A DNA stretch of 64,000 nucleotides from a candidate division WWE3 bacterium. Lineage in GTDB: Bacteria; Patescibacteriota; 4484-211; GCA-002791395. Position numbers and translations under genes: made by a program. Positions within the stretch are counted from its first letter, which is position 1; every line of letters begins with the position of its first letter. The stretch spans positions 74,740 to 138,739 of the forward strand of contig JAAXWF010000004.1 in the NCBI GenBank assembly GCA_013335095.1, given 5' to 3'. Shown here piece after piece: positions 9,651 to 50,013 of this stretch. The notes beneath the pieces are model-generated. The model saw only the letters and a program-made list of their open reading frames with translations, searched no databases and had not been told where the DNA came from.

Positions 9651-10082
9651 TTACACCATATTGATGGTAACGTAGTACCACCACACCGAGAAAACCGTAC
9701 ACCCGATCGACATGAAGAATGTATCGGCGTGCTGGATGCTAAGCCCACCGAGCTTGATGTGGGGATGATACTCAGAGTTCATCACCCCGATCACGGTCGC
9801 CACATAAAATGGCATAAGAAATGCCAGGAAGCCATCGGTCGTGAGGCTCCATATGGCAACCACAAAGCCGATACCAGCAGCAGCGGTACAGACCATAAAA
9901 TAGGTCATCTCCCATGCGGCAGCCAGAATGAGGATACGACGCGAACCGCGCATAAACAGACCGATGACCATATGCGGGTCGCGGTGAGCTTCGCGGACCT
10001 GTTCGGCCGCAGTATAACACTCGCCAACCCACATTATTGCAGAGATAGCCCCTACAGCCATGTACACCAGTACGAGGATCAT
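9651..10082 (-). CDS. Integral membrane protein
   Basis: 143 aa, four hydrophobic helices. Confidence 0.4.
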   Translation of the reverse strand: MILVLVYMAVGAISAIMWVGECYTAAEQVREAHRDPHMVIGLFMRGSRRILILAAAWEMTYFMVCTAAAGIGFVVAIWSLTTDGFLAFLMPFYVATVIGVMNSEYHPHIKLGGLSIQHADTFFMSIGCTVFSVWWYYVTINMV

Positions 10083-10145
10083 TGATCCCTCCTGCTAAAC
10101 GACTCAGATTCTAACCAGGTAATTATATCAGTTATAGGACACTTT

Positions 10146-17147: not shown

Positions 17148-18974
17148 ATGAGTGATGTGGCAAAACAAATAAAAGAACGAATCGATATCGTCGAATACAT
17201 CAATAGGACAACAAAGTTACAACGAACCGGTAAAAACTTTAAAGGAATCTGTCCCTTTCATAAAGAAGTTACTGGTAGTTTTTTTGTATCACCCGATCGC
17301 CAAATGTGGCATTGCTTTGGATGTAATCGGGGCGGAGATTTATTTACCTTTGTCACCGAAAAAGAAGGCATTGACTTCAAATCGGTATTAGAGCTACTTG
17401 CACCAGAGGCTGGCGTAGATTTATCTCAATTTCGCCAAGGAGACTTGGCAAATGAGCACAAAGCATATGATGCACTTCAGGCCGTCACGCACTTCTATCA
17501 GCACGCATTATTTGAACCCAAAGCTAAAAGTGCCCTTGAATATATCCTTACTCAACGTCAAATTCCTCGGGAACTCATTGAGAGATTTCAGATTGGATAT
17601 GCTCCGGATTCATGGTCTATTACCGGAGAGTACTTGATTACTAAAGGCTTCAAAGTATCCGAACTTATCGCCAGCGGTATTATCATCGAGAAACCGGACT
17701 CAGATCAACGTCGAAATTGGTATGATCGATTTCGTAATCGAATTATGTTTCCCATCCACGACCGATTAGGCCGAGTGGTTGGATTCACCGCACGTTCACT
17801 TGAAGCAAAACCAACGGGAGGAAAATATATCAATACGCCCGAAACGGAATACTACAAAAAGAGTTCGCTCTTATATGGACTTGAATTAGCCAAGGATTCG
17901 ATCAAACGGCTTGATTACACCATCGTTACCGAGGGAACGCTCGATGTCATTGCTTTTCATAAGATTGGTATCCAAAACGTTGTTGCACCTCTAGGAACAG
18001 CATTAACGATGCAACATATCGAGATATTAAAAAGAATATCATCGCGAATAGTCCTATTTTTTGATGCGGATCAAGCGGGATATCAAGCGACACTAAGAGC
18101 ACTTCTTTCGTGTTTGGCGAGCGAAATGGAAGTTAAAGTAGCAATAATCGAAGGAGGGAAAGATCCCGATGAGCTGGTTAAATCAAAACCGAACCAACTT
18201 AAATCATGCTTACAAAGTGCTAAAAGTTTCTATGACTTTTTACTCATCAAAGCCAAAGAGCAATTGCCGAATACTCACCCCAATTTTGCCGTGCATACCT
18301 CTCAATTGATCCTGCCCTTTATTAAAATTGTACCGAATACGATTCATCAAGAGAGTTTGATTCAGCGCCTTTCCCGTGACGTTAATATCACAATAAATAG
18401 CCTCACACAGCAACTTAGTAAAATAAACCCCAACGATATTGTGAATACGGTGGATCGAATCAGTACCACTTCGGTTCAATCCACCCCGATACGACCGCCA
18501 AAACAGACACGCCTCCAGGCCTTATGGCGAGAACTAAATGCGATGATGCTTCAGATACCGGCAAGCTTAGAAAATGATGCACAACTCATGGAGATTGTAT
18601 CGGAGATACCCGAGCCAGATACTGAGCATATAGTTACCTCACTTAACCAAAAGCTGAAACAATTTATTGCCGAAACTGGTACAATAAATCATGAAGAACT
18701 TGATAAACAACTCACCCCAGAAGAGCTCGAACTCACTAACTTGTTAGCTCTTCATAATCTTGGTACAATATCCGCGGATGAAGAGGCGTTTTTATCCAAT
18801 CTTAGTCAAATCACCCGAGACATCATCATCTCACAAACCAAACGTCGCATTACGCAGGTTAGTAAAATTATTGCCGCTGGAGATAGCTCAGCTGAATTGT
18901 TAAACGAGATGCGTGGGCTTACTCACAAGCTCAGAGAGCAGCAACTCGCTTCACAACAAGCTACAGAGGGTTGA
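17148..18974 (+). CDS. dnaG: DNA primase
   Basis: 608 aa. CHC2 zinc finger (CPFHKE...CFGC) and TOPRIM domain (EGTLDV, FFDAD). Followed 21 nt later by rpoD. Ends with TGA. Confidence 0.85.
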   Translation: MSDVAKQIKERIDIVEYINRTTKLQRTGKNFKGICPFHKEVTGSFFVSPDRQMWHCFGCNRGGDLFTFVTEKEGIDFKSVLELLAPEAGVDLSQFRQGDLANEHKAYDALQAVTHFYQHALFEPKAKSALEYILTQRQIPRELIERFQIGYAPDSWSITGEYLITKGFKVSELIASGIIIEKPDSDQRRNWYDRFRNRIMFPIHDRLGRVVGFTARSLEAKPTGGKYINTPETEYYKKSSLLYGLELAKDSIKRLDYTIVTEGTLDVIAFHKIGIQNVVAPLGTALTMQHIEILKRISSRIVLFFDADQAGYQATLRALLSCLASEMEVKVAIIEGGKDPDELVKSKPNQLKSCLQSAKSFYDFLLIKAKEQLPNTHPNFAVHTSQLILPFIKIVPNTIHQESLIQRLSRDVNITINSLTQQLSKINPNDIVNTVDRISTTSVQSTPIRPPKQTRLQALWRELNAMMLQIPASLENDAQLMEIVSEIPEPDTEHIVTSLNQKLKQFIAETGTINHEELDKQLTPEELELTNLLALHNLGTISADEEAFLSNLSQITRDIIISQTKRRITQVSKIIAAGDSSAELLNEMRGLTHKLREQQLASQQATEG

Positions 18975-18995
18975 CATAGTTAGTATAGTTAAACC

Positions 18996-20081
18996 ATGGC
19001 TGCACAGACACAACAAGACCAACTTAATGATCTAGTCAAAAAAGGGAAAAAACAAGGTTTTGTCCTTATTGAAGAGATATTAGGCATTTATCCCGACGCA
19101 GAAAAAAAACTTGAAGAGCTCGATAAGCTGTATGGAGTATTCCTCGATAATGGTGTTGAGGTATTAGAAACCCAGCAAAAAGACGAGGCTGTAGGTGCGA
19201 AAAAAATTGATATCCATAAGCAACTCGATGAACTTGCAAGTAAAATCCACAAAAAAGCATCCGATCCTGTTCGTATGTACCTTACCGAAATTGGTAAAGT
19301 ATCCCTTTTAACTAAAGATGAAGAAGTTTCACTCGCAAAACGCGTAGAGCAAGGCGATCAAGAAGCGGTAGAAATGCTTATCCGTTCAAACCTCCGGTTA
19401 GTGGTCTCTATTGCTAAAAAATACCTCGGACGAGGACTATCCATGCTGGATTTAATCCAGGAAGGTAACATGGGTCTTATGAAAGCAATAAAGAAATATG
19501 ATTGGCGACGAGGATTCAAATTTTCGACCTATGCAACATGGTGGATTCGCCAAGCAATTACCCGTGCAATCGCCGATCAAGCACGAACGATTCGCGTTCC
19601 AGTCCACATGGTCGAAACGATTAATAAATTCCACCGAATATCGCGTCGGATGGCACAGGAACTTGGACATGAACCAGAACCAGAACAAGTCGCAAAAGAG
19701 ATGGGATTAGAACCCGAAAAAGGTCGCGAAATACTTAAAATTGCTCAAGAACCAACCAGTTTACAACGTAAAGTTGGAGATGATGATGAGTCATCACTTG
19801 GAGACTTTATCGAAGACGAAATGGTGATGTCACCCGATGAAGCCGCAAGCGCAGAACTCCTCAAAGAGCAAATGCGCGAGGTTTTAGAGTCATTAACTCC
19901 CCGCGAACGCAAGGTCTTGGAGCTGCGATTTGGACTTGAAGATGGCCGTAGCCGAACACTCGAAGAGGTTGGAAAAGAGTTTGGCGTAACTCGAGAACGT
20001 ATTCGCCAGATCGAAGCGAAGGCGCTACGAAAACTTAAACACCCAACACGAGCACGTAAATTGAAAGATTATTTGGAATAA
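18996..20081 (+). CDS. rpoD: RNA polymerase sigma factor RpoD (sigma-70, compact)
   Basis: 361 aa. Region 2 ([28 protein letters not shown]), region 3, region 4 ([29 protein letters not shown]). Confidence 0.9.
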
Positions 20082-20177
20082 TTTATCCGTTATTAGGTAC
20101 ATATTTCATTTTCTATTTGAACCAATTCGTTATAATGTGATCGTTATTTTCATCCGGATACATTTCACCCAAGGAGG

Positions 20178-20711
20178 ATGACCGTGGGCTGTCGTCCACA
20201 TTTAAAGCCGCTCGTGGTTGCGGATGCTGATCTTGCCGAGATTGACCGAATTCTTTGCGAAGATCAACTTCCACCCAGGCTTCAGAAGAGGGCATTATGC
20301 CTATTGTTACTCAGTCGTGAAGAACCGATCGACGAGATCTGTCGGCAAACAGGACTAGTCAAAGGTTCTGTGTACTCGATCCGTCATCGGTATGAAGACA
20401 GAGGGATGAAGGTACTCGAGAAACCGGCACAGCCCCCTACCACGGCAGATTCGGATCGGTGGTCTGCGCAGCACCTCAAAACCCGGGGAAGCCGTTTGCG
20501 CCGAATACAATCCGATGAGTTAACCGCTCTGATCGAGATCTCTGCCCAAGATGATGCAGGTGAGCCCAAACGAAGGGCTCAAATCATTATCGATATTCAC
20601 TCGGGAATCAAGGCGATAATAGTAGCGCAAAGACTCGGAGTATCCCGTCAAGCAATCAGCGAGAAGGTCAGTAAGTTCAATCTATTTGGGTTGAGCTGGG
20701 TTCTCGCATAG
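20178..20711 (+). CDS. Tandem HTH protein with transposase-type (paired-like) helix-turn-helix modules; no catalytic domain
   Basis: 177 aa, GC-rich. Two modules matching the R-A-x-I-L-L-...-G-x-S-...-I-A-...-G-V-S pattern (RALCLLLLSREEPIDEICRQTGLVKGSVYSI... and RRAQIIIDIHSGIKAIIVAQRLGVSRQAISE...). Start may be the GTG at 20184, which gives better RBS spacing. Confidence 0.5.
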   Translation: MTVGCRPHLKPLVVADADLAEIDRILCEDQLPPRLQKRALCLLLLSREEPIDEICRQTGLVKGSVYSIRHRYEDRGMKVLEKPAQPPTTADSDRWSAQHLKTRGSRLRRIQSDELTALIEISAQDDAGEPKRRAQIIIDIHSGIKAIIVAQRLGVSRQAISEKVSKFNLFGLSWVLA

Positions 20712-20724
20712 GGTTTAACCCCAA

Positions 20725-20753
20725 GGGCAGGTCTAAACCACCTGCCCATTTAT
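20725..20753 (+). terminator. Hairpin terminator candidate (GGGCAGGT...ACCTGCCC)
   Basis: 8-bp perfect inverted repeat with 7-nt loop directly after the stop of the HTH gene, followed by ATTTATT. Confidence 0.4.
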
Positions 20754-20800
20754 TACGTTACCTGTTGATCCGATTATAATTATCAGCTACTCTAAAGAAA

Positions 20801-21412
20801 GTGAACGACTCCACCCACCCCGAAAAAATTACCGATAGATATTTAAGGAGATTACGTTTTGACCAGAGTATTCGTTATTTAACTGATAAAAAGATTGGTA
20901 CGATAGTCGATATTGGCTGCGGGTCGGTGGGTTATTATCTTAACTATTTAATTGATAAACGCTATAGTGTAAACGAGTACATCGGTATTGATCCCCTATT
21001 AAATCCTGATATTGATCAGCTGCATCAACCGATTAAAAATACTCGTTTCATAAGCAGCATGCTCGATTCCACATTAGAACTTGAATCAAACAGTGCGGAT
21101 CTCGTCGTTGGTTTCTCGGTTCTTGAACACATACAATATCCCGATAAGATCATGAAAGAAGTCATCCGCATAATGAAACCAGGGGGTCGAGCAATATTTT
21201 CTGCACCTACGCCATCGGCTAAAAGCATATTAGAAATCATGGCTAATCAGTTACAACTGATTTCACCCCATACCGTTAAGAGGCAACCGCAATACTTCAC
21301 GAAAGAAACAATGCTGCGATTAATACCACCACAATTAACCGAAGAAGTTGTCATAATGCATCATTATTTTGAGTTCGGATTAAATAATTTATTTGTTCTG
21401 TATAAAAAATGA
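20801..21412 (+). CDS. Class I SAM-dependent methyltransferase
   Basis: 203 aa. Motif I VDIGCGSVGY, motif post-I/II LVVGFSVLEH, motif III MKPGGRAIFS. Confidence 0.65.
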   Translation: MNDSTHPEKITDRYLRRLRFDQSIRYLTDKKIGTIVDIGCGSVGYYLNYLIDKRYSVNEYIGIDPLLNPDIDQLHQPIKNTRFISSMLDSTLELESNSADLVVGFSVLEHIQYPDKIMKEVIRIMKPGGRAIFSAPTPSAKSILEIMANQLQLISPHTVKRQPQYFTKETMLRLIPPQLTEEVVIMHHYFEFGLNNLFVLYKK

Positions 21413-21458
21413 CCCTCAGTGTTTTTATTCCTAAGGGTCTATTGGAGTTTCCACAATA

Positions 21459-21980
21459 TTAAATGGCAACAGATTCGGTTAAGTTGATCCTGCCAGCAAT
21501 AACGTCACGGAGGAACCGAGTCCATGGGTCCGTACCGTTTACTGTAAGCGGCCACATATGCACGGCCCATTCAATGATCCAATCCAAGCAGGGCTGTGTT
21601 CGACTGGGTCCATACAATCTTACCGCCATGGGTATCACCAGAAGGGTTGCCCCAAGATCAACGGTATGAAATCCCACTTCCACATACAGGGAAAGTCGTT
21701 GTCCAGCGGCATCAATCACCTTAACGACACCGTTGTAGATCGTAATTTGGATCGGATTGTCGTCGGCAAAGACAACCGAATCTTCGCCAATGTCGGATAC
21801 CGAAACATCGGTAATCTGACATTGATGCACCTGGGCTGCTATTTGAACAGCCTCTAGAACGCGTAGGGCGTTCTGTCCGATACGAACTGTCGGAGAATCC
21901 ATCACGAGCCTCCATCCATACAAGCTATATGGGTAAGATAACGACCGAATCATTGTAGTGACCATGCTTGATTCGGACAA
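21459..21980 (-). CDS. Hypothetical protein (GC-rich island)
   Basis: 173 aa ORF in a 55-60% GC segment. No recognisable motifs. Confidence 0.4.
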   Translation of the reverse strand: MSESSMVTTMIRSLSYPYSLYGWRLVMDSPTVRIGQNALRVLEAVQIAAQVHQCQITDVSVSDIGEDSVVFADDNPIQITIYNGVVKVIDAAGQRLSLYVEVGFHTVDLGATLLVIPMAVRLYGPSRTQPCLDWIIEWAVHMWPLTVNGTDPWTRFLRDVIAGRINLTESVAI

Positions 21981-22105
21981 CTAGATTAATTTCGTATACG
22001 GCTAACCAATACAAGAGTGAGGCGGTTTTGAATTGATACAAAGGAAGAAACCCGACAAGTATATAACTTGCCGGGCAAAGTTGCTTAGACGCCCCTTCTA
22101 GAGGG

Positions 22106-22657
22106 TCACACAGTGTAGGTATCGACGGCAAAGACATGTTCGGCTAAACCAGCACCCACCGTCCATATGACGGCTTTACTGAGGGTATCGATCCCCCACT
22201 CATATCGGGAAACGACAATGCGCTGTAGCGCGCCCTCAATAAGAGATGGTGAAAGTGCCCGAATCATCGGTAGCACGTCTGGGGCTGGTATTGTCCAACC
22301 GCTCAGTTTAGCGAGTAGGACAAATTCAGATACTCCCCGTAGGGCGGCCGATATTGTCCTTAAATCGACCTCGGTGGGTACGGTAACAGTAATTGCACCG
22401 AAGGGTGGGAGATGTACGGTGCCGTGAAGACAGACCCGAGCATCAGCCGAAAAAGTAACCGATACAGGAGCACGTTCAAACATGTCGCCATATCGATACT
22501 CAGCAAGCCCGGTGATCCGTGTGAGCTCATGGTCATGTAAAGGATCATGCCACCAAAGATCCTCAACCACACCACCAAAAACATGTACTAGATCGGCGAT
22601 TAGTTCGCCGGCCCTTTCCGCCAATGAAAGCGGTTCCGTCAGCGTGGATAGATCCAC
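22106..22657 (-). CDS. Hypothetical protein (GC-rich island)
   Basis: 183 aa ORF in a GC-rich segment. No recognisable motifs. Confidence 0.4.
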   Translation of the reverse strand: MDLSTLTEPLSLAERAGELIADLVHVFGGVVEDLWWHDPLHDHELTRITGLAEYRYGDMFERAPVSVTFSADARVCLHGTVHLPPFGAITVTVPTEVDLRTISAALRGVSEFVLLAKLSGWTIPAPDVLPMIRALSPSLIEGALQRIVVSRYEWGIDTLSKAVIWTVGAGLAEHVFAVDTYTV

Positions 22658-22758
22658 TGTAGACCTCCAGTCAGATTACATGTAGCTTGTTTTTTGATTA
22701 TACGGCAAAGAATAAAGAGCAACTTATCATTACGAAGTTATTCATGTACAATCGCTAG

Positions 22759-23601
22759 ATGAATATTGGCGGATTTGTTTCGGCGTCAGGTGGGATTGAC
22801 CAGGCCTTTCATCGAGCATACACAAACGAATTCTTAGTACCAATGTTTTTCATCGGTAGTCCTCAAAGTTGGAATTTACCAGTACTAAATGATGTTCAAA
22901 TTGGTCAGATCCAAAAAGCTAAAAAGGAAACTGGTATAACCCAATCCTATGCTCATGCACTCTATTTAGCTAATCTAGCTTCACCAGAAAAATCTATTAC
23001 CGATAAGGCCGTGAAAGCATTAACAACGACGATGCAAAATGGAGAAAAGATTGGACTTTCTGGCGTTATTTTCCATTTAGGAAGCCATAAAGGAACATCG
23101 ACCGAAGAAGGACTAAAGCGCGTCGCACAAGGTATGCGTCTGGTGCTTAATGCATCGCCCGGCCAAACCCATTTGATTATGGAGAACAGTGTCGCGCAAA
23201 AAGATAAAGTCGGTGGTAATTTTCAAGAGATTGGATATGTTCTAGACCTTCTTGACCACGATCCTCGAGCAACAGTTTGCCTGGATACCTGCCATACATT
23301 TGCGTCAGGCTACGATTATAAAGATAGTGATTCGTTGTCTATGTTGTTAACCGAGGTCGATAAATATATCGGCTTTGATCGACTAGAATGCTTACACGTT
23401 AATGATTCTCAGGGAGCGCTCGATAGCCATATTGATCGTCACGCTAATTTTGGTGAGGGTAATATAACCCCCGAAGGATTTAGAGCATTACTTCTTCACC
23501 CGAACATCATAGACAAACCAATGATTATGGAGATTCCTGGAGTAAATGGAGAAGGTCCGAGTATTGAAGACAAAAAGATTCTTCTTAGCATTTTGAAATA
23601 A
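22759..23601 (+). CDS. nfo: Endonuclease IV (AP endonuclease family 2)
   Basis: 280 aa. N-terminal GxHVSASGG-like motif (GGFVSASGGIDQA) and metal-binding H/D/E residues of the xylose-isomerase-like TIM barrel. Confidence 0.7.
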   Translation: MNIGGFVSASGGIDQAFHRAYTNEFLVPMFFIGSPQSWNLPVLNDVQIGQIQKAKKETGITQSYAHALYLANLASPEKSITDKAVKALTTTMQNGEKIGLSGVIFHLGSHKGTSTEEGLKRVAQGMRLVLNASPGQTHLIMENSVAQKDKVGGNFQEIGYVLDLLDHDPRATVCLDTCHTFASGYDYKDSDSLSMLLTEVDKYIGFDRLECLHVNDSQGALDSHIDRHANFGEGNITPEGFRALLLHPNIIDKPMIMEIPGVNGEGPSIEDKKILLSILK

Positions 23602-34078: not shown

Positions 34079-34377
34079 CCTCAAGTAGCCTATAATCATT
34101 GCATTAACCCCCTAAACATCCTATAATTAAAGTGCGTACAGCTACGCAAGTAGTTTTACGTACTTTGGTAATACCAAAGATGCACTTTTTTATACGCATG
34201 AATTTGAACTAATGTAACGTTCACGTTGCTCCTGCGCCTTATCCAGGCCGTTGAGGATATAATAGTTATGTCTTCTACGGCCCGGATAAGAGTGTCGGCC
34301 TTACAAGCCGACTCGGACAACCCCGCGCAATCGGGGTTTATTGGTGGCGGTTCTACCGCCCAGATGAGGAGATCGCA

Positions 34378-34683
34378 ATGGATACCGATCTGCTATGGAG
34401 CCGAATCGAGGAGCGGGCGGCGGTTATGGCGATAGTTGCGAGTGCGATACTGGACGAGGGGGGCACTTTCCCCGTCCGTTTTAATCGAGCACTCAAAATG
34501 GTCGCTGAAAATGAGATCGAACTTACGGTGAGGGAGTGGATACAGGTCCTTCGGGGCCTTGGCATCTACGACTTCAACCAGTACTTCGGGCTCATTGGAA
34601 ACGTCCGTGTACCTGGCGGAACGCTCCCGTACTACGATAAGTTCGATCGGGAGATGTCTGCTATCGATTGGCACGGTTTCTAA
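34378..34683 (+). CDS. Hypothetical small protein (island cassette gene 1)
   Basis: 101 aa, about 58% GC. Preceded by hairpin GGTGGCGGTTCTACCGCCCA and a GAGGAG RBS. Confidence 0.45.
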   Translation: MDTDLLWSRIEERAAVMAIVASAILDEGGTFPVRFNRALKMVAENEIELTVREWIQVLRGLGIYDFNQYFGLIGNVRVPGGTLPYYDKFDREMSAIDWHGF

Positions 34684-34721
34684 AAAGGTGGCGGTTCTAC
34701 CGCCCACAAGGAGAGGTACCA

Positions 34722-35126
34722 ATGGCGACCTCAGCAGGCAGCCGTGCGCAGCTCAAGTCCGTGATCGAGGCCCTCGGCGAAGTCTACACAGTCGCTCTGG
34801 ACCTGGGGTACAATCCCCAGCCGGGGCTTGACCGTAGAATCTTCGCCCGGATGGCTAGTGCCGCCCATAACGGCACGCACATCGTGATCGGAATACAGCG
34901 GGCCGCCAAGAGGGCTAAGGAGCTGGGTATCGAGATGAATCCCACCGATTGGCTCCCCTATCTGGGGGCCTTTGGGATCAACTCGTACGAGCTTCTGCTG
35001 CTGGCGATCGGGGACTACACGTTCCAGATCGTCGGCGATGACCTTACCAGCGCGATTGTCGCCGGCCTCAAGCCCTGGGACTTCCCCGGGTATGAGGGTT
35101 GGCGGCCGGAGGAATCCGGCAAATAG
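34722..35126 (+). CDS. Hypothetical small protein (island cassette gene 2)
   Basis: 134 aa. Start chosen at the ATG 7 nt after AAGGAGAGG, which follows a second copy of the GGTGGCGGTTCTACCGCCCA hairpin. Confidence 0.45.
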   Translation: MATSAGSRAQLKSVIEALGEVYTVALDLGYNPQPGLDRRIFARMASAAHNGTHIVIGIQRAAKRAKELGIEMNPTDWLPYLGAFGINSYELLLLAIGDYTFQIVGDDLTSAIVAGLKPWDFPGYEGWRPEESGK

Positions 35127-35286
35127 GTTCCGATTCGGCGTTTGCCGGGGCTGAGGGGGAGCAATCCACCCAAAGTCCCGGCCTTTTTTGTTATATCTCT
35201 TTTATTTCAATTTTTATTTGACGACCTACAATAATTAACCTATAATAATTTCGTCTTTTTCATCCGGATAACAAGGAGGTGGCTCA

Positions 35287-35868
35287 ATGAGCCAGAACCA
35301 AGGAACGCTACCAACCATTCTGGTAGACCTGTCGTTCAGGTATGCAGGAACGCTCCTGCATGCTACTCACATTGATGCCGATGGTAATGCCCAGGTTGAG
35401 TTCCCGATCAGCTTCGGCGGAGGACGACTCCGAAGTGGTCGACGCAAGAGTGAGTACTTCATCCTCACCCTAGAACTTTCTGAGCTAGTAAGAATCATGG
35501 CTCTCTTCCAGAACCTGATTCACCGGATCCCTGAGGTCCAGGCGATGGCCGAAAACGCCATCACGGTGATCTCGCAGCAGGGGACGAAACTAAACCGGGA
35601 GGTCACGATCAAGCCGATCGTACGCACCCTCGTGGTTGCGACATCCCTCCCATCACGGGATGAGTCAGAGGCCGAAGTTGTTCTGGCGGCGGGAACGCAG
35701 GTGAGCATCTGGGGAGTATGTGACCCAACTCACCCGTACTTCTACGCCACTATCGGGGGAAACCGTTCGGCGCTTATTCCGGCAACCAATGTCGAAAACG
35801 GCGCGGATCTGGCGACCCGAATCTTCAAGCAGGCGGCGGAGCTATTCCGCCCGCTGGGAGGTGAGTAA
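35287..35868 (+). CDS. Hypothetical protein (island cassette gene 3)
   Basis: 193 aa. Preceded by the conserved TATAAT-N10-TTTTCATCCGGATA-AAGGAGG leader. C-terminal half resembles the next ORF (GTQV..G motif). Confidence 0.45.
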   Translation: MSQNQGTLPTILVDLSFRYAGTLLHATHIDADGNAQVEFPISFGGGRLRSGRRKSEYFILTLELSELVRIMALFQNLIHRIPEVQAMAENAITVISQQGTKLNREVTIKPIVRTLVVATSLPSRDESEAEVVLAAGTQVSIWGVCDPTHPYFYATIGGNRSALIPATNVENGADLATRIFKQAAELFRPLGGE

Positions 35869-36173
35869 TGAGCAACCCCGGTCTTGACGAGCTCCCGCTT
35901 CGTATAACTGAGCGGGTTCATGACATGGTGAGAACGGAACCTGCCATAGTGGCTTACACCACGGTAGGGCTCCAACTGACCTCAGAAACCGCTGGTGCCC
36001 AAATTCTACCGATAGGCACACAAGTGCTCGTCGTCGGCATATTTGGGTACAATCCGCCACGACTAATCGTCATCTGGCCGGATGGATCTGAAAGTGGTGT
36101 GGAGAAGTCCATCATTGAAGATGGAGAGGCATTGATTACGAGGATCACTAAGCTCCGTGATCCATCGGCCTAG
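35868..36173 (+). CDS. Hypothetical small protein (island cassette gene 4)
   Basis: 101 aa. TAATG stop/start overlap with gene 3 (translational coupling). Followed by a strong terminator. Confidence 0.45.
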   Translation: MSNPGLDELPLRITERVHDMVRTEPAIVAYTTVGLQLTSETAGAQILPIGTQVLVVGIFGYNPPRLIVIWPDGSESGVEKSIIEDGEALITRITKLRDPSA

Positions 36174-36194
36174 CCATTTGAAGTGACAAAACCA

Positions 36195-36227
36195 CCCCAG
36201 GGACTAAAAAACCTGGGGCTTTTTTTA
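36195..36227 (+). terminator. Rho-independent terminator (CCCCAGG-loop-CCTGGGG + T8)
   Basis: 7-bp GC-rich stem, 10-nt loop, followed by TTTTTTT. Lies between the convergent island cassette and pgk. Confidence 0.6.
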
Positions 36228-36239
36228 TTTTAGGGAATA

Positions 36240-37463
36240 TTATTCTTCACGGAGCATTTCTAACGCAGGGAGTTTTTTACCGGCAATAAATTCTAACGTC
36301 GCACCACCGGCTAAACTAATGTGAGTAAACTGAGTAGGATTACTAAATCGATTGATTACTGCAATCGTATCTCCTCCGCCAACAATCGAATCATTCTTAG
36401 AATTGGCCATAGCTTGAGCAACTATTTTTGAGCCATTTGCAAAACGATCATCTTCAAACTTTCCCATCGGACCATTCCAAAATACTGTACCCGATTTATG
36501 GATAATATCTGCATACATTTGCGCAGTAGCCGGACCAATATCGAATGCAGCCCAACCCGGTGCGACAGCTTGTTTCCCATCGACATACATAACTTGAGTT
36601 AAAAACGAATAATCCGAACTCTCTCCTACCACAACATCAACTGGCATTACAATCTTGTCACTTTTCTGAGCTTTTTCTAATAACTCTTTTGCATATTCAA
36701 CCCAATCTTTTTTTACCTTCTTTTGAGCATCCACAAAAACATCCTCGACATATGAATCAGCCATATCATGACCGGCAGCTTTCAAGAAAACATTTGCCAC
36801 GCCACCACCAACCAAAAACTGATCTGCGACGTTAAATAAATTATTAATGGCATCGACCTTATCCGAAACTTTTGCACCGCCGATAATTACGGTAAATGGC
36901 CGTTTTGGCGATTCGAGAATTCCCGACAAACTAGACGCCTCTTTTATGCAGTAAAATCCGGCATAACTCGGAAGATGACGCATGATACCAGTTACAGAAG
37001 CATGAGCTCGATGTGCTTGAGGAAAAGCATCGAAAACAACAACCTCACCATTTTTAGCAAGTTCCAATGCAAAAGAGTCATCATCGGTCATCTCTTCTGG
37101 ATGAAAACGGGTATTTTCGAGCATAACAATCTCACCAGGATGCATACGGTGTATAAAGGATTGGACTTCGTCTCCAATGCATTCATCTAATTTTTGTACT
37201 GGGTGATTTAATAATCGAGCTAAAACTTCGGCGTGAGGTGTCGTACGAAGAGATTCAACAACTTTACCATCAGGTCGCCCAACAAAGGTTAAGATAACAA
37301 TTTTGCATTGTTTTTCTAGAAGGTATTGTAACGTTGGAAGAGTTGCTTCTATTCGGCTTTCATCGGTAAGAGTACCGTCATCTTCGACATTTATATCGTA
37401 TGGGGAACGATATAAAACAGTCTTATCAGTAAGATCAGCAGTTTCGAGTGAACGCAAACGCAT
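36240..37463 (-). CDS. pgk: Phosphoglycerate kinase
   Basis: 407 aa. N-domain substrate-binding residues, hinge and C-terminal nucleotide-binding GGGA motif region (IIGGAKVSDK, GGGVAN). Confidence 0.85.
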   Translation of the reverse strand: MRLRSLETADLTDKTVLYRSPYDINVEDDGTLTDESRIEATLPTLQYLLEKQCKIVILTFVGRPDGKVVESLRTTPHAEVLARLLNHPVQKLDECIGDEVQSFIHRMHPGEIVMLENTRFHPEEMTDDDSFALELAKNGEVVVFDAFPQAHRAHASVTGIMRHLPSYAGFYCIKEASSLSGILESPKRPFTVIIGGAKVSDKVDAINNLFNVADQFLVGGGVANVFLKAAGHDMADSYVEDVFVDAQKKVKKDWVEYAKELLEKAQKSDKIVMPVDVVVGESSDYSFLTQVMYVDGKQAVAPGWAAFDIGPATAQMYADIIHKSGTVFWNGPMGKFEDDRFANGSKIVAQAMANSKNDSIVGGGDTIAVINRFSNPTQFTHISLAGGATLEFIAGKKLPALEMLREE

Positions 37464-37466
37464 TAT

Positions 37467-38933
37467 TTATAAAACCTCTTGTATTGTTATTGTATTCGTT
37501 GAACCCGGAACACGCCAGCGGCGACCGTGAACAATTAATAAACGATTACCTGGATGAGCGATACCTTGAGCCTTTAAGGCATCGACGGCTTCTTCAAGTG
37601 ATACGTCAGTCTCTTCGGGGAACGGTAGGTTAACCGGTTCAATACCATACGATAACTGGAGTTGACCGCGAATTGTTTCATCAACGGTAATTGCAAAGAT
37701 CGGAATATCAAGACGGAATCGCGATAATGAATACGCAGTGCGGCCAGTTTCACTAAAAACGATAATCGCATCGATATCAAAATTTTTGCGAGTTGAAACG
37801 ATCTTGTTTACCGCATAGGTTAAAATGTCGGTTTGATCCAAAGCTTTTTCCATAGATAAATCAGGAACATACATGTGGGCCTTTGTTTCATTGAACTCGG
37901 CGATTTTTGCCATAGTACGTACGGCTTCAACCGGATATTTACCCTGGGCACTTTCACCAGAAAGCATAATTGCATCGGTTCCATCAAACACAGCATTAGC
38001 AACGTCGGTTACTTCGGCACGTGTAGGCATCCGTTCGGTAATCATAGATTGGAGCATTTGAGTTGCAGTAATAACCGGCTTTCCAACAATACGGCAGGTA
38101 TTAATGATTTCATTTTGCCAATAAGCGATCTCTTCGAGCGGAGTCTCAATACCAAGATCACCACGAGCAATCATTATTGCATCTGATAAAGTTATGATTT
38201 CGCCTAAATGATGCAATGCCAAACTGGTTTCGATCTTTGAAACGATTTTGGCTGGCATTTTATATTCATCCAGTTTATTTTTCAAAACATTAATGTCTTC
38301 ACCGGTACGAATAAATGATAACGCTACGTAAGCGATTTCTAAATCTTTAAATGCATCTAGAAACATAACATCTCGTTCGGTAAGTGATGGGACATCAACA
38401 TACACTGTGGGTAAATTGACTCCTTTACGATTGCCAACGGTATAATTGTCTAGCGCGGTCGCAACAACAGAATCGCCTTCTTTACGAACAACTTCAAAAT
38501 GGATAAATCCATCATCGATTAAAATAATTGTTCCGATATTTAGTTCATTGATAATTTGTTGATTAGGAATAACAAACTCTTTTTCTTTACCGGTAAAATC
38601 TGCCGAAAAATATGCTTCTTCACCAGATTTAACTTCGACAGGTTGTTTGTTTGGTGTAGCAATACGGATTTCTGGACCTTGAAGGTCTACAAGAATACCA
38701 ACCGGCTTGTTCATGCGTTTGCTAATCGAAAGAACTGATTCGATTCGTTCACGATGCCACTCCGGCTCATTATGTTTTAGATTGAAACGAAATACATCAA
38801 CGCCCGCATCAATCATTTTTTCGATAGTATCAGGAGATTCCGACGCAGGTCCGAGCGTCGCAACTATTTTTGTTCTGCGCACGTTCATTATTCTAGTCGA
38901 TGATCCCGAATAATCAACCCCCAATACATACAA
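37467..38933 (-). CDS. pyk: Pyruvate kinase
   Basis: 488 aa ORF. Real start likely the internal Met (MNVRRTKIVATLGP, near 38888). K+/Mg-binding and MIARGDLG active-site motifs. Confidence 0.85.
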   Translation of the reverse strand: MYVLGVDYSGSSTRIMNVRRTKIVATLGPASESPDTIEKMIDAGVDVFRFNLKHNEPEWHRERIESVLSISKRMNKPVGILVDLQGPEIRIATPNKQPVEVKSGEEAYFSADFTGKEKEFVIPNQQIINELNIGTIILIDDGFIHFEVVRKEGDSVVATALDNYTVGNRKGVNLPTVYVDVPSLTERDVMFLDAFKDLEIAYVALSFIRTGEDINVLKNKLDEYKMPAKIVSKIETSLALHHLGEIITLSDAIMIARGDLGIETPLEEIAYWQNEIINTCRIVGKPVITATQMLQSMITERMPTRAEVTDVANAVFDGTDAIMLSGESAQGKYPVEAVRTMAKIAEFNETKAHMYVPDLSMEKALDQTDILTYAVNKIVSTRKNFDIDAIIVFSETGRTAYSLSRFRLDIPIFAITVDETIRGQLQLSYGIEPVNLPFPEETDVSLEEAVDALKAQGIAHPGNRLLIVHGRRWRVPGSTNTITIQEVL

Positions 38934-39040
38934 AAGACATACAAATTACCAACAATATTCACATTTTATTTGATGTAGCTATGGTATTTTGCTATCATCG
39001 TGGCGTTCACACTAGGCAAGGAATAATTAAGGAGGTGGCA

Positions 39041-39910
39041 ATGCCACGGCTACATGAGCTGGAAATCACCATTACGTTAAATGGTGAAAAGTCGGTGACA
39101 AATCTCGGACGAATAGCATTACACGATGCTGTTCGAAAAATAGTCGAGATGAACCCGACGGTTGGCCCGGCAAACATGTCGGTTCGTCAAGTCGATATAG
39201 ATCGGATCCTGCCGAATATAACCTTTCGCCAGCAGACGAACAGTCTATTTTCCCAACTGCTGGCAGAGCGAGTAGAAGCAGATCCGCAGCCACCCCTTCC
39301 CCACCATGTGAATGAAGAGGTATACGCCATCTGCCCCTGGTGCCGTAAAGAGGTTGGTGATGAGGTCTATCGAACTCTCAAGGATTGGAATTACATCCAG
39401 CCCGACTGGACACTGACCGACAAATTCGATGAATTCGAATGTCCACATTGCGGCCAAGTTATTGGTCGGTATTTAAGTGTGTGGCTGACCCAGCCAGTTA
39501 AACTGGGTGCGGCACTCTTTGCTAACCATCCAGTGGTGTACGGTGAACGGCTAGCTCGGTATAAAGAGCTACATTGGCTATTAGTAAATCTATCGGAAGA
39601 ACTAGGCCAATTGACACAAGTCGCGATTTTTGAACGATTTGGATGGCGCTGGAACCAGCTTCCTCCACTGGCTGAAGTGGCTCGATCAAAAGGAATTACG
39701 ATTGATCGGCGACGTAAGCAGGAACAGACGGGTCTTAGGAAATTGCGCAATCGGCGCAATGCCGAACAAATGACAGGAGCAGCCGACCCAACGGGGACCT
39801 TTGAAATATTAAGACTAAAACAGCAGATTGCTGATTTAGAAACACGGCTAAGAATATTAACCGTGGAAAACTCCAATCTGCAGGGACTCTTATTAGCTCT
39901 GCGGAAATAG
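39041..39910 (+). CDS. Zinc-ribbon protein with sigma-70 region-4-like HTH (paralog A)
   Basis: 289 aa from the ATG 7 nt after AAGGAGG. CPWC-x35-CPHC zinc ribbon. C-terminal IFERFGW...LAEVARSKGITIDRRRKQEQTGLRKLR closely parallels rpoD region 4 (LELRFGL...[27 protein letters not shown]). No region 2. Confidence 0.5.
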   Translation: MPRLHELEITITLNGEKSVTNLGRIALHDAVRKIVEMNPTVGPANMSVRQVDIDRILPNITFRQQTNSLFSQLLAERVEADPQPPLPHHVNEEVYAICPWCRKEVGDEVYRTLKDWNYIQPDWTLTDKFDEFECPHCGQVIGRYLSVWLTQPVKLGAALFANHPVVYGERLARYKELHWLLVNLSEELGQLTQVAIFERFGWRWNQLPPLAEVARSKGITIDRRRKQEQTGLRKLRNRRNAEQMTGAADPTGTFEILRLKQQIADLETRLRILTVENSNLQGLLLALRK

Positions 39911-40077
39911 AGCTAGTGTAAATACCGGCTAATGAGGGAATCTCATTGGCCGGTATATTAACGACACATACATTTCCATATCTCTCGACACGCTACCGTT
40001 TGCATAACATTATCGGCTTTGTTATCATTTCCCTGACTACAACCAGTAGTTGTTGGATAACGCAAGGGAGGTGCTCT

Positions 40078-41250
40078 GTGCCAAACCAAGACAGGATTGT
40101 CATCCTGTATGAGGTCAACGGCCATCGAGGTAGTTCTGAATACTTCGATATGACCTTTAATGATGCCCTGGCGATGTTTGTGCGGGAACGGCCGGAAATC
40201 GGTCCCCGACAGATCGCCCAGGTATTCCACGGGTTGGTCAGTAGTGAAAAGACCTACAACGGCTGGAGAGGCCGGGTCGACGCATACTACCTCAACGTTC
40301 CCCTTCCGGACCCAGATCCGATTGCCCCAGAAGTCGAAGACGAACTATCGGCCCAGTGCCCACGGTGCAAGGCCGATATCGGAGGATGGATCGTATCGAG
40401 CCTACCCCGGGACGATCTGTATCTTAACTTTGGGGTACCAAGTTTCGATTTCAGATGTCCAGGGTGTGGAACCGATTTAGAGATGTGGATACATAGCTAT
40501 TTGAACAAGCTTATGGCGGTGTTCAATGTAGTCCATGGAGGAATTGTAGAACGAGATAAGGCAGCACTGCGTTTAGTGCGCTTCTATCGCTCCGTTCAAC
40601 AGGTCCTGGTTGACCTGCATCAGCAGGAACCTGAGGTTTATAACGTCTTGGCTCATATGGTCGGACTCAAAGGAGTCTCGATTACCCAGAAGCAGGTAAT
40701 TATAGAACTGGGCCTGGGATCAGACTCCGTTCTAAGAAAGCTTATGGGTAAGGCAACAACGTTTTTGCGGCGCCACCCGCAAATGCAGGCAGCCTTCCGA
40801 TATCGGGATTTAAGCGACGAGGCAATAAATGCGTTCGTCGCCTCAGCCCAAGGAAGACAAGAAGAGGCGCTGGCAGAACTCGCGGCGCAAGTAGCCACGC
40901 TTTCGACGATGATCAATGAGGTCGCGAATCACCAACATGATGCGATCTTCAACCTCAGAGTCGAAGTGCTACTCCTGAGGGGCCTACCCCTGGCCGAAGC
41001 CCAGATCCTAGCCCTTCTTACCGTCGAGGATCTAGCGCTTACGCCAAGCCTGCGACGCTCGCTTAACATAGCACCCGTTCTCACCGAAATGCGAAACGCT
41101 GCCGGCAGAGTCTTTGCCGGTAATCTTTTGATCTGGCTCAGGTCAAAAGACCGAGAACAGGTAATCAAAAGTATCCCCAGAATGGGTCCATCTGGGATGG
41201 CCAGTATTGAAGGGGCATTCCTCCTTCTTGGGATTCAAGTTTACCCGTAA
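40078..41250 (+). CDS. Zinc-ribbon protein with sigma-70 region-4-like HTH (paralog B)
   Basis: About 390 aa from the GTG after GGGAGG. CPRC-x36-CPGC zinc ribbon. HTH segment VGLKGVSITQKQVIIELGLGSDSVLRKL. N-terminus parallels paralog A (MP..I.I..NG...GP). Confidence 0.5.
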   Translation: MPNQDRIVILYEVNGHRGSSEYFDMTFNDALAMFVRERPEIGPRQIAQVFHGLVSSEKTYNGWRGRVDAYYLNVPLPDPDPIAPEVEDELSAQCPRCKADIGGWIVSSLPRDDLYLNFGVPSFDFRCPGCGTDLEMWIHSYLNKLMAVFNVVHGGIVERDKAALRLVRFYRSVQQVLVDLHQQEPEVYNVLAHMVGLKGVSITQKQVIIELGLGSDSVLRKLMGKATTFLRRHPQMQAAFRYRDLSDEAINAFVASAQGRQEEALAELAAQVATLSTMINEVANHQHDAIFNLRVEVLLLRGLPLAEAQILALLTVEDLALTPSLRRSLNIAPVLTEMRNAAGRVFAGNLLIWLRSKDREQVIKSIPRMGPSGMASIEGAFLLLGIQVYP

Positions 41251-41367
41251 TAAACCAGAGCTGGTCGGCATCGCCGATCAGCTCATCTTTCTACATCCAT
41301 TCGAACTCAACAATCATACTATAGGTGCTATAATTAATCCGTCGCTATTGGCACGTATCGGAGGTCC

Positions 41368-41776
41368 TATGACCAAAGGATTCTTGGACAAGGTTAAACT
41401 GGCCAAGGGGCCAGACATGAGTTTCGCGGCCTTTGAACAAGCATTTTCGGCATTTGACGAATTCAACGCGAATCCCACCAAACGATTCGTCATCGTCTTT
41501 CTGTGGCCTATGGGTGAAACCATGAGTATGCAAGGGCTGAACCGCCCACTCGACTATGCCTTTGCATATGTTGATGGATCTACTCCGATTCCCTATCGAT
41601 TAATGGAGATCGGCCTGGGGTGGAATATCTCGTCCGACCCACATGAGATATCAATCGCAGAATTTATACAGCGTTTGACCGATGAATTCGGCGATCGATT
41701 TGCCGGAATCATTCAGGCATCGGGTGAATTCTGGCGATTGGCCGAGCTGGCGATTGAAGCCAGCAAAGGACCCTAA
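41368..41776 (+). CDS. Hypothetical protein (end of GC-rich island)
   Basis: 136 aa from the ATG after GGAGG. Followed by hairpin CGGGAG-N12-CTCCCG. Confidence 0.35.
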
Positions 41777-49437: not shown

Positions 49438-50013
49438 ATGATTAAGTGGATTAAATCTCGAATGTATCCATTGTCTGATAAATCCGACGCAGAATTAATC
49501 GCAGCGGCAAAACGCGGCGATAGGGATGCTTTTGGGCAATTATATTTGCGCCACCTTGATGCGATGTTTCGATATATTTACTTTCGGACGGGTGATTCAC
49601 TAACCGCCGAACAGATAGCTGCTGATGTGTTTGTGAAAGCATGGAAAAAGCTTGAATCGTACCATCCAAAGGCTGGAAGTTCATTTACATCGTGGATTTA
49701 TCGAATCGCCCGCAACCGGATTATTGATTATTATCGGACTCGCAATACTCGTAATCAATCACTCTCAATACAGATGGAAGATGCCCATCAACTAACATTC
49801 GATGAGCGGTTAGCAAAAATCGATAATGAACGAATGATTGAACAGTCGTTGCAGATTCTGACTGAAGAGCAGCGCGAGGTGATCATGCTTAAATATATCG
49901 AACGACTCGATTACAAGGAGATCTGTTCAATAACCGGTAAATCGAATATGGCAGTGAGGGCATTAGTATCAAGAGGTTTAAAAATATTACAAAAAAACAT
50001 TACAAAAAAATGA
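49438..50013 (+). CDS. ECF-type RNA polymerase sigma factor
   Basis: 191 aa. Region 2 (FRYIYFRTGD...AEQIAADVFVKAWKK, SWIYRIARNRIIDYYR) and region 4 (EQREVIMLKYIERLDYKEICSITGKSNMAVRALVSRGLKIL). Confidence 0.75.
   Translation: MIKWIKSRMYPLSDKSDAELIAAAKRGDRDAFGQLYLRHLDAMFRYIYFRTGDSLTAEQIAADVFVKAWKKLESYHPKAGSSFTSWIYRIARNRIIDYYRTRNTRNQSLSIQMEDAHQLTFDERLAKIDNERMIEQSLQILTEEQREVIMLKYIERLDYKEICSITGKSNMAVRALVSRGLKILQKNITKK

What the first reader, a model, noticed from the sequence alone, without database searches (positions are those of the whole stretch)
20140..20760. Stand-alone tandem transposase-type HTH protein in a GC-rich insert (domesticated transposase N-terminus?)
The 177-aa protein carries two consecutive HTH modules. 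Both follow the pattern typical of paired-like/Tc1-IS630-type transposase DNA-binding domains (R-A-x-I/C-L-L-L-S..E-x-x-..I-x-..-G-V-S...V). There is no DDE catalytic domain and no terminal inverted repeats nearby.

It sits in a roughly 55% GC segment, between the AT-rich rpoD and an AT-rich methyltransferase. It is followed by a hairpin terminator.

This suggests a transposase-derived transcription factor, or the remnant ORF-A of a decayed IS, co-opted together with the islands it may regulate.
Basis: partly seen in the sequence, partly recalled or inferred. Interest (0 to 1): 0.55.

Follow-up and report, generated by a model that had tools for sequence, protein, structure and literature searches.

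The report
Orphan two-HTH DNA-binding gene after rpoD
A small, real gene in a candidate-division WWE3 bacterium encodes two copies of the helix-turn-helix module that IS630-type transposases use to grip DNA. It has no cutting domain and no transposon around it, so it is best read as an ordinary, lineage-specific DNA-binding regulator attached to the end of the dnaG-rpoD operon.

Summary
ORF 20178-20711 (+, 177 aa) is a real gene encoding two HTH modules, and it is GC-richer than its host (51% against 42%; GC3 0.51 against about 0.35). A hairpin terminator follows it. There is no DDE domain and no terminal inverted repeat.

The "decayed IS" reading is rejected. A six-frame Pfam scan from the rpoD stop to nfo finds only the HTH and a methyltransferase. 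The second module repeats the first (HTH_23 type) instead of being the HTH_32/33 second domain of IS630 transposases. The nearest relatives among 1.84 billion representatives are DDE-less arrays of 2-6 such modules.

The only full-length homologue in the protein collections searched (34% identity, really 265 aa with three modules) also lies directly after rpoD, in a related genome (RpoD 96% identical, synonymous sites near saturation). It likewise has no terminator before it and a strong one after it. Four other WWE3-like rpoD loci (RpoD 83-94%) lack the gene.

Between the two homologues the module-2 HTH is 61% identical and the module-1 HTH 19%.

Best reading: an anciently acquired, fast-evolving bipartite DNA-binding regulator co-transcribed with dnaG-rpoD. 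Its target is unknown. It is a new member of a known kind, of modest interest.

The parts
20178..20711 (+). Gene for the 177-aa two-module HTH protein. Alternative start: GTG at 20184, 6 nt after GGAGG.
   Evidence: ORF list. Pfam HTH_23 and HTH_29 above their gathering scores. A full-length homologue exists, P0002. The AF2 model has mean pLDDT 82.7.
20211..20411 (+). Module 1 (residues 12-78): a four-helix HTH_23/HTH_29-type module. Its HTH diverges strongly from the homologue's (19% identity).
   Evidence: Module profile 59.3 bits. Pfam best stretch is residues 33-80. Helices 16-27, 33-46, 51-58 and 62-80. Identity by region.
20412..20510 (+). Basic, disordered linker (residues 79-111, pI 11.4), containing RW...RGSRLRR.
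   Evidence: pLDDT below 50 for residues 84-104. pI calculation. The RW and RGS.LR motifs are conserved in P0002.
20511..20693 (+). Module 2 (residues 112-172): a second module of the same repeat type. Its HTH and recognition helix (S/T)RQAIS.KVS.FNL.GL.WV is 61% identical to the homologue's.
   Evidence: Module profile 21.7 bits. Pfam HTH_23 E = 0.0029 on this half alone, with no HTH_32/33 hit. Helices 112-123, 129-141, 146-153 and 157-170. Identity by region.
20082..20177 (+). The 96-bp spacer between rpoD and the HTH gene. It has no terminator, a perfect TATAAT at 20131-20136, and GGAGG at 20173-20177.
   Evidence: No terminator-like site in the scan. Folds no better than shuffles, z = +0.83. 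Sequence read.
20725..20747 (+). Intrinsic-terminator-like hairpin: 8-bp stem with 6 G-C pairs, then ATTTATT. It closes the dnaG-rpoD-HTH transcription unit.
   Evidence: Scan. Fold z = -2.47. The homologue has an equivalent, stronger hairpin at L162 2189-2215.
17148..20081 (+). dnaG (17148-18974) and rpoD (18996-20081): host genes in the same orientation directly upstream, and the inferred operon partners.
   Evidence: Pfam domains of the called genes. Nucleotide homology with L162 ends at the rpoD stop codon, 20084.

Best explanation
The gene encodes a small (about 20 kDa, pI 9.2), stand-alone, sequence-specific DNA-binding protein. It consists of two copies of the four-helix 'IS630-transposase N-terminal' HTH module (Pfam HTH_23/HTH_29), joined by a roughly 25-residue basic flexible linker.

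Inferred mechanism: each module places its recognition helix in a major groove, and the basic linker tracks the backbone or minor groove between them. One molecule would then read a bipartite site of about two helical turns and act as a transcription regulator. Module 2 is the conserved, specificity-defining head. Module 1 has diverged between the two known members.

The gene is not part of a transposon. An ancestor of this WWE3 sub-lineage acquired it once from a GC-richer donor, just after the rpoD stop codon. It has since been partly ameliorated and has evolved fast, while staying intact as the last gene of the dnaG-rpoD transcription unit.

Shown: domain content, repeat nature, absence of DDE and TIRs, conserved position, terminator layout, and differential conservation of the two modules.

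Inferred: DNA binding, the bipartite binding mode, co-transcription with rpoD, the regulatory role, and a single ancient acquisition.
For: Domain content:
- HTH_23 and HTH_29 score above their Pfam cut-offs.
- The NCBIfam IS630 profile matches only its positions 1-88 of 299, at 33 bits against a cut-off of 100.
- Both halves hit one module profile built from 66 modules of other proteins.
- AF2 gives two confident four-helix modules and a disordered linker.

Relatives:
- Exhaustive HMMER against 1.84 billion representatives gives only 20 hits at E <= 1e-3.
- The ten of these scanned with Pfam are DDE-less proteins with one to six HTH_23/29 modules. The shorter hits read directly show the same module and no catalytic domain; P0008, P0010 and P0013 were not examined.
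- The only full-length homologue, P0002, lies directly downstream of an rpoD that is 96.4% identical in protein. At four-fold degenerate sites that rpoD differs by 62%.
- Nucleotide homology between the two loci stops at the rpoD stop codon.

Transcription layout and selection:
- Both loci have no terminator or stable structure between rpoD and the HTH gene, and a hairpin terminator right after it.
- Both genes have GC3 of 0.51, against a host GC3 of about 0.35-0.41.
- Both ORFs are intact. dN/dS is about 0.5 with dS saturated.
- The module-2 HTH is 61% identical between the homologues and the module-1 HTH 19%.

No transposon:
- No DDE in six frames of 20060-22780.
- No TIRs.
- No transposase among the called genes covering 41 kb of the window.
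Against: - No DNA target was found. The two loci share no significant motif in their flanks, and the CGTTAT repeats in the upstream spacer are not enriched.
- The family has only two members, so conservation statistics are thin.
- dN/dS of about 0.5 is high for a regulator, and dS is saturated, so selection is poorly measured.
- Equal GC3 excess in both genes could also come from two independent acquisitions.
- Four related rpoD loci lack the gene, so it is dispensable.
- Fold searches gave no significant match (best PDB E = 0.067, best BFVD E = 0.003). The bipartite binding mode therefore rests on analogy.
- Co-transcription with rpoD is inferred only from the absence of a terminator. A perfect TATAAT in the spacer could instead drive independent transcription.
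Confidence: 0.6

Rival explanations
1. Remnant OrfA of a decayed IS630-family insertion sequence. The DDE OrfB and the inverted repeats have eroded away, and the surviving ORF has no host function.
For: The best named matches are transposase-type HTH families, and the NCBIfam IS630 profile hits at E = 3.4e-8. The gene is GC-rich relative to its host, as expected for foreign DNA. It is absent from four related rpoD loci.
Against: - No DDE or rve trace in any of six frames between rpoD and nfo.
- Only 96 bp and 89 bp of flanking spacer, then intact host-type genes.
- No TIRs.
- The second module is a repeat of the first, not HTH_32/33.
- An intact homologue sits at the same position in a genome with near-saturated synonymous divergence. 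A dead ORF would have accumulated stops by then.
- The recognition helix of module 2 is selectively conserved.
- No DDE-bearing protein appears among the HMMER hits examined.
Confidence: 0.05
2. Component of an unrecognised small mobile or cassette-like element that targets the 3' flank of rpoD. The two homologues would then be independent insertions. The HTH protein would serve the element as a site-recognition, excision-control or repressor protein, not the host.
For: - The rpoD-nfo gap is a variable region that holds different GC-rich orphan genes in three close relatives: window 20178-22657, L162, and L169 5392-6909.
- Homology between genomes breaks exactly at the rpoD stop codon.
- Both HTH genes keep a raised GC3 despite near-saturated host divergence.
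- A distant two-module relative, P0018, sits in a phage-like gene cluster with RusA, an endolysin, HNH and Dam.
Against: - No integrase, recombinase or transposase, no att-like or inverted repeats, and no tRNA at the site.
- The GC-rich segment is exactly one gene, with its own SD and terminator.
- The neighbouring 'cargo' differs completely between the two genomes and has host-like GC: a methyltransferase in one, a GT2 in the other.
- No hit to PADLOC, plasmids or informative PHROGs.
Confidence: 0.15
3. An accessory factor functionally tied to the primary sigma factor: a DNA-binding or RNAP-binding partner co-expressed with RpoD that modulates promoter use in this sub-lineage.
For: The gene is adjacent to rpoD in the same orientation, without a terminator, in both known members, although everything further downstream differs. 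Weak structural resemblance to two-domain sigma factors appears among the top Foldseek hits.
Against: - The sigma-like fold hits are not significant (E >= 0.027).
- There is no Sigma70_r2 or r4 Pfam hit.
- The gene is absent after rpoD in 4 closer and about 150 more distant rpoD loci.
- Adjacency in two genomes may simply be inherited position.
Confidence: 0.1

Closest known systems
IS630-family transposase N-terminal DNA-binding region / OrfA (NCBIfam NF033545; Pfam HTH_23, HTH_29)
   Same: It has the same four-helix HTH module: L..E...L, then RA..LLL, then G.S..EIA...GVS..TV..W..R(Y/F)...G(L). Profile positions 1-88 align at E = 3.4e-8.
   Different: It has no HTH_32/33 second domain, no DDE_3 catalytic domain, no TIRs and no TA duplication. 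It scores 33 bits against the family cut-off of 100. It is a single-copy gene held at a fixed chromosomal position.
DDE-less tandem arrays of HTH_23/HTH_29 modules, annotated 'helix-turn-helix domain-containing protein' or 'transposase' (for example P0004, P0012 and P0018 with two modules; P0005 and P0009 with five or six)
   Same: The repeat unit is the same and the architecture is the same (module, short basic linker, module), with no enzymatic domain. These are its best HMMER neighbours (E = 5e-9 to 1e-3).
   Different: They share only 20-30% identity. They come from unrelated contexts; one lies in a phage-like cluster. None is functionally characterised, so the comparison gives an architecture but not a function.
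Bipartite paired-type DNA-binding domains (Pax paired domain; Tc1/mariner, Tc3 and Sleeping Beauty transposase PAI+RED)
   Same: Two helical HTH sub-domains joined by a basic linker, a plausible model for reading a bipartite site as a monomer.
   Different: Here the two sub-domains are repeats of one four-helix type, not distinct three-helix PAI and RED units. The Foldseek match to 1pdn and 6pax is not significant (E = 0.27-1.2).
Cbp1, the multi-HTH CRISPR-repeat-binding protein of Sulfolobus (PDB 2lvs)
   Same: It is the top Foldseek PDB hit, and it is a small protein made only of tandem HTH units that binds repeated DNA.
   Different: E = 0.067 with TM 0.24-0.39, so there is no real evidence of relatedness. 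There is no CRISPR array or other repeat array in the window.

Membership tests
IS630-family transposase (NF033545) | Whole-protein score at or above the curated cut-off (100 bits) | tested here: not met
   33.3 bits. Only profile positions 1-88 of 299 are matched.
IS630-family transposase (NF033545) | DDE_3 catalytic domain, in frame or frameshifted downstream | tested here: not met
   Six-frame Pfam scan of 20060-22780 finds only the HTH and methyltransferase domains. No transposase among the called genes of window 10.2-30.7 kb and 36.8-58.5 kb.
IS630-family transposase (NF033545) | Second DNA-binding domain of HTH_32/HTH_33 type | tested here: not met
   The C-terminal half alone hits only HTH_23 (E = 0.0029), with no HTH_32/33 hit on that half. 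It matches the module-1-type repeat profile at 21.7 bits.
IS630-family transposase (NF033545) | Terminal inverted repeats flanking the element | tested here: not met
   No inverted repeat brackets the ORF. All pairs found are short, imperfect and inside neighbouring genes.
Pfam HTH_23 (PF13384) / HTH_29 (PF13551) | Score at or above the gathering threshold | tested here: met
   HTH_23 44.4 bits against 24.6. HTH_29 42.0 bits against 28.1.
DDE-less tandem HTH_23 module proteins (informal class) | Two or more modules of the same repeat type and no other domain | tested here: met
   Two hits to one module profile built without the query. The alignment with two-module proteins P0004, P0012 and P0018 is collinear. 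No other Pfam domain is present.
Paired / Tc1-mariner bipartite DNA-binding domain | Structural superposition on PAI+RED sub-domains | tested here: inconclusive
   Foldseek against 1pdn gives E = 0.27, TM 0.24-0.34 and rmsd 12.6 A. The relative orientation of the two modules in the model is undefined, pTM 0.44.
Sigma-70 / ECF sigma factors | Sigma70_r2 and r4 domains | tested here: not met
   No Sigma70 family appears among the Pfam hits at E <= 1. Structural hits to sigma factors have E >= 0.027.
Sequence-specific DNA-binding transcription factor (functional class) | Demonstrated binding to a defined operator | not testable with these tools
   No candidate operator was found. This needs EMSA or DAP-seq.

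The most novel reading that the evidence does not exclude
The 3' flank of rpoD in this WWE3 sub-lineage is a dedicated landing site for GC-rich foreign gene cassettes. Under this reading the two-/three-module HTH protein is the site-recognising or controlling component of a so-far undescribed recombinase-less (or trans-mobilised) element. A variant of the idea is that it is a lineage-specific partner of the primary sigma factor, co-expressed with it.
Probability: 0.1. Interest if true: 0.6.

Novelty: new member of a known kind. Interest (0 to 1): 0.27.

Why it matters
CPR/Patescibacteria have very small regulatory repertoires. A retained, horizontally acquired DNA-binding protein attached to the dnaG-rpoD operon would be one of few lineage-specific regulators there.

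The case also shows that transposase-type HTH modules circulate as free-standing, duplicating DNA-binding units (arrays of 2-6 modules) that are not remnants of insertion sequences. That matters for annotation, because such genes are often labelled 'transposase'.

Beyond that, the finding is ordinary. It has no new chemistry, no new element and no identified target.

Tried and rejected
- Internal duplication by direct BLASTP of the two halves: nothing (E = 1.9). The repeat relationship only appears with a module profile.
- Word-indexed protein search: only self, and with the two-sequence profile only P0001 and P0002.
- PDB sequence search: no hit at E <= 10.
- PADLOC, PHROGs and plasmid tblastn: nothing informative.
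- Synteny through DnaG in GTDB genomes and RpoD in JGI metagenomes: about 150 rpoD loci, all distant (RpoD <= 64%), none with a relative of the gene. Close relatives came only from the RpoD protein search plus contig look-ups.
- Candidate operator motifs: CGTTAT occurs three times in the upstream spacer, but CGTTATWWT is not enriched in the window (7 observed, 4.6 expected). A shared 10-mer, TATTTCATTT, between the flanks of the two loci is within chance.
- The 15-bp direct repeat at 20077 and 21383 that brackets the HTH and methyltransferase genes was considered as an att-like duplication. It was rejected: 13 of 15 matching, AT-rich, inside a coding region, and one of 17 similar chance families.
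- Homology between the GC-rich orphans of the window (orf173, orf183, 34668, 35287) and those of L169: none.
- Literature searches on HTH_23, IS630 domestication and WWE3 returned nothing on such bacterial proteins.

Full report
**1. What is there**

The window comes from a candidate division WWE3 (CPR/Patescibacteria) genome. The exact protein is in NCBI as 'helix-turn-helix domain-containing protein [candidate division WWE3 bacterium]', on a 143-kb contig.

The ORF at 20178-20711 (+) encodes 177 aa. GGAGG at 20173-20177 touches the ATG. It lies 6 nt before an in-frame GTG at 20184. The homologue described below has the same GGAGG-N6-GTG layout, so the real start may be 20184.

The gene lies 96 bp after the rpoD stop and 89 bp before a SAM-methyltransferase gene. 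An 8-bp G+C-rich hairpin followed by ATTTATT sits at 20725-20747. It folds better than shuffled sequence, z = -2.47.

The ORF is 51.1% GC with GC3 of 0.506. The window as a whole is 42.3% GC, and host-type ORFs have GC3 of about 0.28-0.44.

**2. Domain anatomy**

- Pfam HTH_23 (44.4 bits, two stretches) and HTH_29 (42 bits) both exceed their gathering scores.
- The NCBIfam IS630-transposase model matches only its first 88 of 299 positions, at 33 bits against a cut-off of 100.
- The C-terminal half alone gives only a weak HTH_23 hit (E = 0.0029), with no HTH_32/33 hit.
- I built a 68-position profile from 66 module instances in distant relatives, excluding the query and its homologue. It hits residues 12-78 (59.3 bits) and 112-172 (21.7 bits). 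The two modules are therefore repeats of one type. This is not the PAI+RED or HTH_29+HTH_32 pair of Tc1/IS630 transposases.
- AlphaFold2, run on a 7-sequence alignment, gives two confident four-helix modules (pLDDT about 90). The linker at 84-104 is disordered, and the relative orientation of the modules is undefined (pTM 0.44).
- The protein is basic (pI 9.2) and the linker strongly so (pI 11.4).
- Fold searches found nothing significant. The weak top hits are other multi-HTH or two-domain DNA binders: Cbp1, sigma factors, the Pax paired domain and KorA.

**3. Is it a degraded IS?**

No.

- A six-frame Pfam scan of 20060-22780, the whole stretch from the rpoD stop to nfo, finds only the HTH and the methyltransferase.
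- No inverted repeats bracket the gene.
- The called genes covering 41 kb of the window include no transposase.
- Tblastn with the three-module homologue finds only the gene itself in the window, so there is no paralogue there.

**4. Relatives**

The word-indexed search of 5.8 billion clusters finds only the protein itself. An exhaustive HMMER search of 1.84 billion representatives finds only 20 proteins at E <= 1e-3.

- The ten of those hits scanned with Pfam have no DDE domain and carry one to six HTH_23/29 modules. The shorter hits read directly show the same module and no catalytic domain; three hits (P0008, P0010, P0013) were not examined.
- One of these, P0018, lies in a phage-like cluster.
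- Sources call these proteins 'helix-turn-helix domain-containing protein' or 'transposase'.

Only P0002 is a full-length homologue (E = 4e-19, 34% identity).

**5. The informative comparison**

P0002 is encoded on a 4.3-kb contig (L162), again directly downstream of rpoD.

- That RpoD is 96.4% identical in protein. The rpoD genes are only 81.9% identical in DNA, and four-fold degenerate sites differ by 62%, close to saturation.
- Nucleotide homology between the two loci runs from the 3' end of dnaG to the rpoD stop codon and then ends.
- The L162 gene really starts at an upstream GTG. It encodes 265 aa with three modules, and the window's protein corresponds to modules 2 and 3.
- In both loci there is no terminator or stable structure between rpoD and the HTH gene (z = +0.83 and -0.72). 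In both there is a hairpin terminator right after it (z = -2.47 and -4.63).
- Both genes are GC-rich relative to their hosts and have the same GC3, 0.51.
- The genes further downstream are unrelated. The window has a methyltransferase, two GC-rich orphans and nfo. L162 has a GT2 and a membrane protein.

Other relatives lack the gene at this site:

| Locus | RpoD identity | What follows rpoD |
|---|---|---|
| L163/L164 | 94% | Convergent histidine kinase |
| L165 | 84% | The same convergent histidine kinase |
| L168 | 83% | LytR_C gene, then nfo |
| L169/L170 | 92% | Two different GC-rich (58%) minus-strand orphans, then nfo |

About 150 more distant rpoD loci also lack it.

**6. Selection**

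Both ORFs are intact despite neutral divergence of more than one substitution per site.

- dN is about 0.74, and dN/dS is about 0.5 with dS saturated. For rpoD, dN/dS is 0.014-0.027.
- Conservation is uneven. The module-2 HTH (residues 142-172) is 61% identical between the homologues, and the module-1 HTH (47-78) is 19%.
- A nearly invariant recognition helix, (S/T)RQAIS.KVS.FNL.GL.WV, argues for a maintained DNA-reading function (inference).

**7. Interpretation**

The most economical reading is a lineage-specific, stand-alone bipartite DNA-binding protein of the transposase-HTH module class. The common ancestor of the window genome and the L162 genome would have acquired it from a GC-richer source. 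It has since been partly ameliorated, which would explain the equal residual GC3 excess. It is kept as the terminal gene of the dnaG-rpoD unit and evolves quickly except in its module-2 reading head.

DNA binding, co-transcription and a regulatory role are all inferred. No operator was found.

The rivals are:

- An rpoD-flank cassette or mobile-element component. The gap between rpoD and nfo is clearly a variable region collecting GC-rich orphans, but no recombinase or att-like repeats exist there.
- A sigma-associated factor. This rests on adjacency alone.
- An IS remnant. This is essentially refuted.

**8. Novelty and score**

This is a new, very rare (two-member) sub-family of an already known and widely annotated kind of protein. 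The conserved attachment to rpoD and the asymmetric conservation of the two modules are mildly interesting. There is no new mechanism or system here. Interest 0.27.

Noticed in passing
window 21459-22657 (- strand); L169 5392-6909: Two adjacent minus-strand orphan ORFs (173 and 183 aa, GC 49-52%, no Pfam, NCBIfam, PHROG or PADLOC hit) sit just upstream of nfo. A relative with 92% identical RpoD has two different GC-rich (58%) minus-strand orphans at the same place. The rpoD-nfo gap therefore looks like a hot spot that collects GC-rich foreign orphan genes. No homology between the pairs was detected.
   Followed up: partly
window 34100-36300: The strongest compositional island in the window (up to 61.8% GC). 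Its two ORFs, 34668-35126 and 35287-35868, have GC3 of 0.75 and 0.64 and no Pfam or PADLOC hit. A 14-bp tandem repeat lies between them at 35224-35250.
   Followed up: partly
window 38900-39910 and 39946-41250 (+): Two adjacent GC-rich ORFs are paralogues (23% identity over 252 aa, E = 7e-9). Both contain paired CxxC zinc-ribbon-like motifs and otherwise have no family assignment. A third GC-rich orphan follows at 41207-41776.
   Followed up: partly
L162 1380-2177: The database protein P0002 (215 aa) is called from an internal ATG. The ORF extends upstream to a GTG 6 nt after GGAGGAAGG, giving 265 aa and a third complete HTH module.
   Followed up: yes
window 9651-10085: A short GC-rich island (about 53% GC) with overlapping ORFs on both strands. 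The minus-strand 143-aa product looks like a small multi-pass membrane protein. No Pfam hit.
   Followed up: no
window 49438-50822 (+): An ECF-type sigma factor gene (Sigma70_r2/r4_2, 191 aa) is followed, with a 4-bp overlap, by a DUF5667 protein (270 aa). This is a likely sigma/anti-sigma pair, and shows that this small genome has at least one alternative sigma.
   Followed up: no
window 58458-63965 (-): A giant ORF of 1835 aa with unusually high GC2 (0.515). It was not examined.
   Followed up: no
L172 1725-2291: A distant two-module HTH_23 protein (P0018, 188 aa) lies in a phage-like cluster between RusA and a GH25 endolysin, near HNH, T5orf172 and Dam genes. Such module pairs are therefore also used by phages.
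   Followed up: no
window 20801-21412 (+): The methyltransferase downstream of the HTH gene (GTG start, host-like 37.7% GC) is absent from the rpoD-nfo gap of all relatives examined. It gives a weak PADLOC hit to mad2 (E = 3.5e-7), probably generic SAM-MTase similarity.
   Followed up: partly
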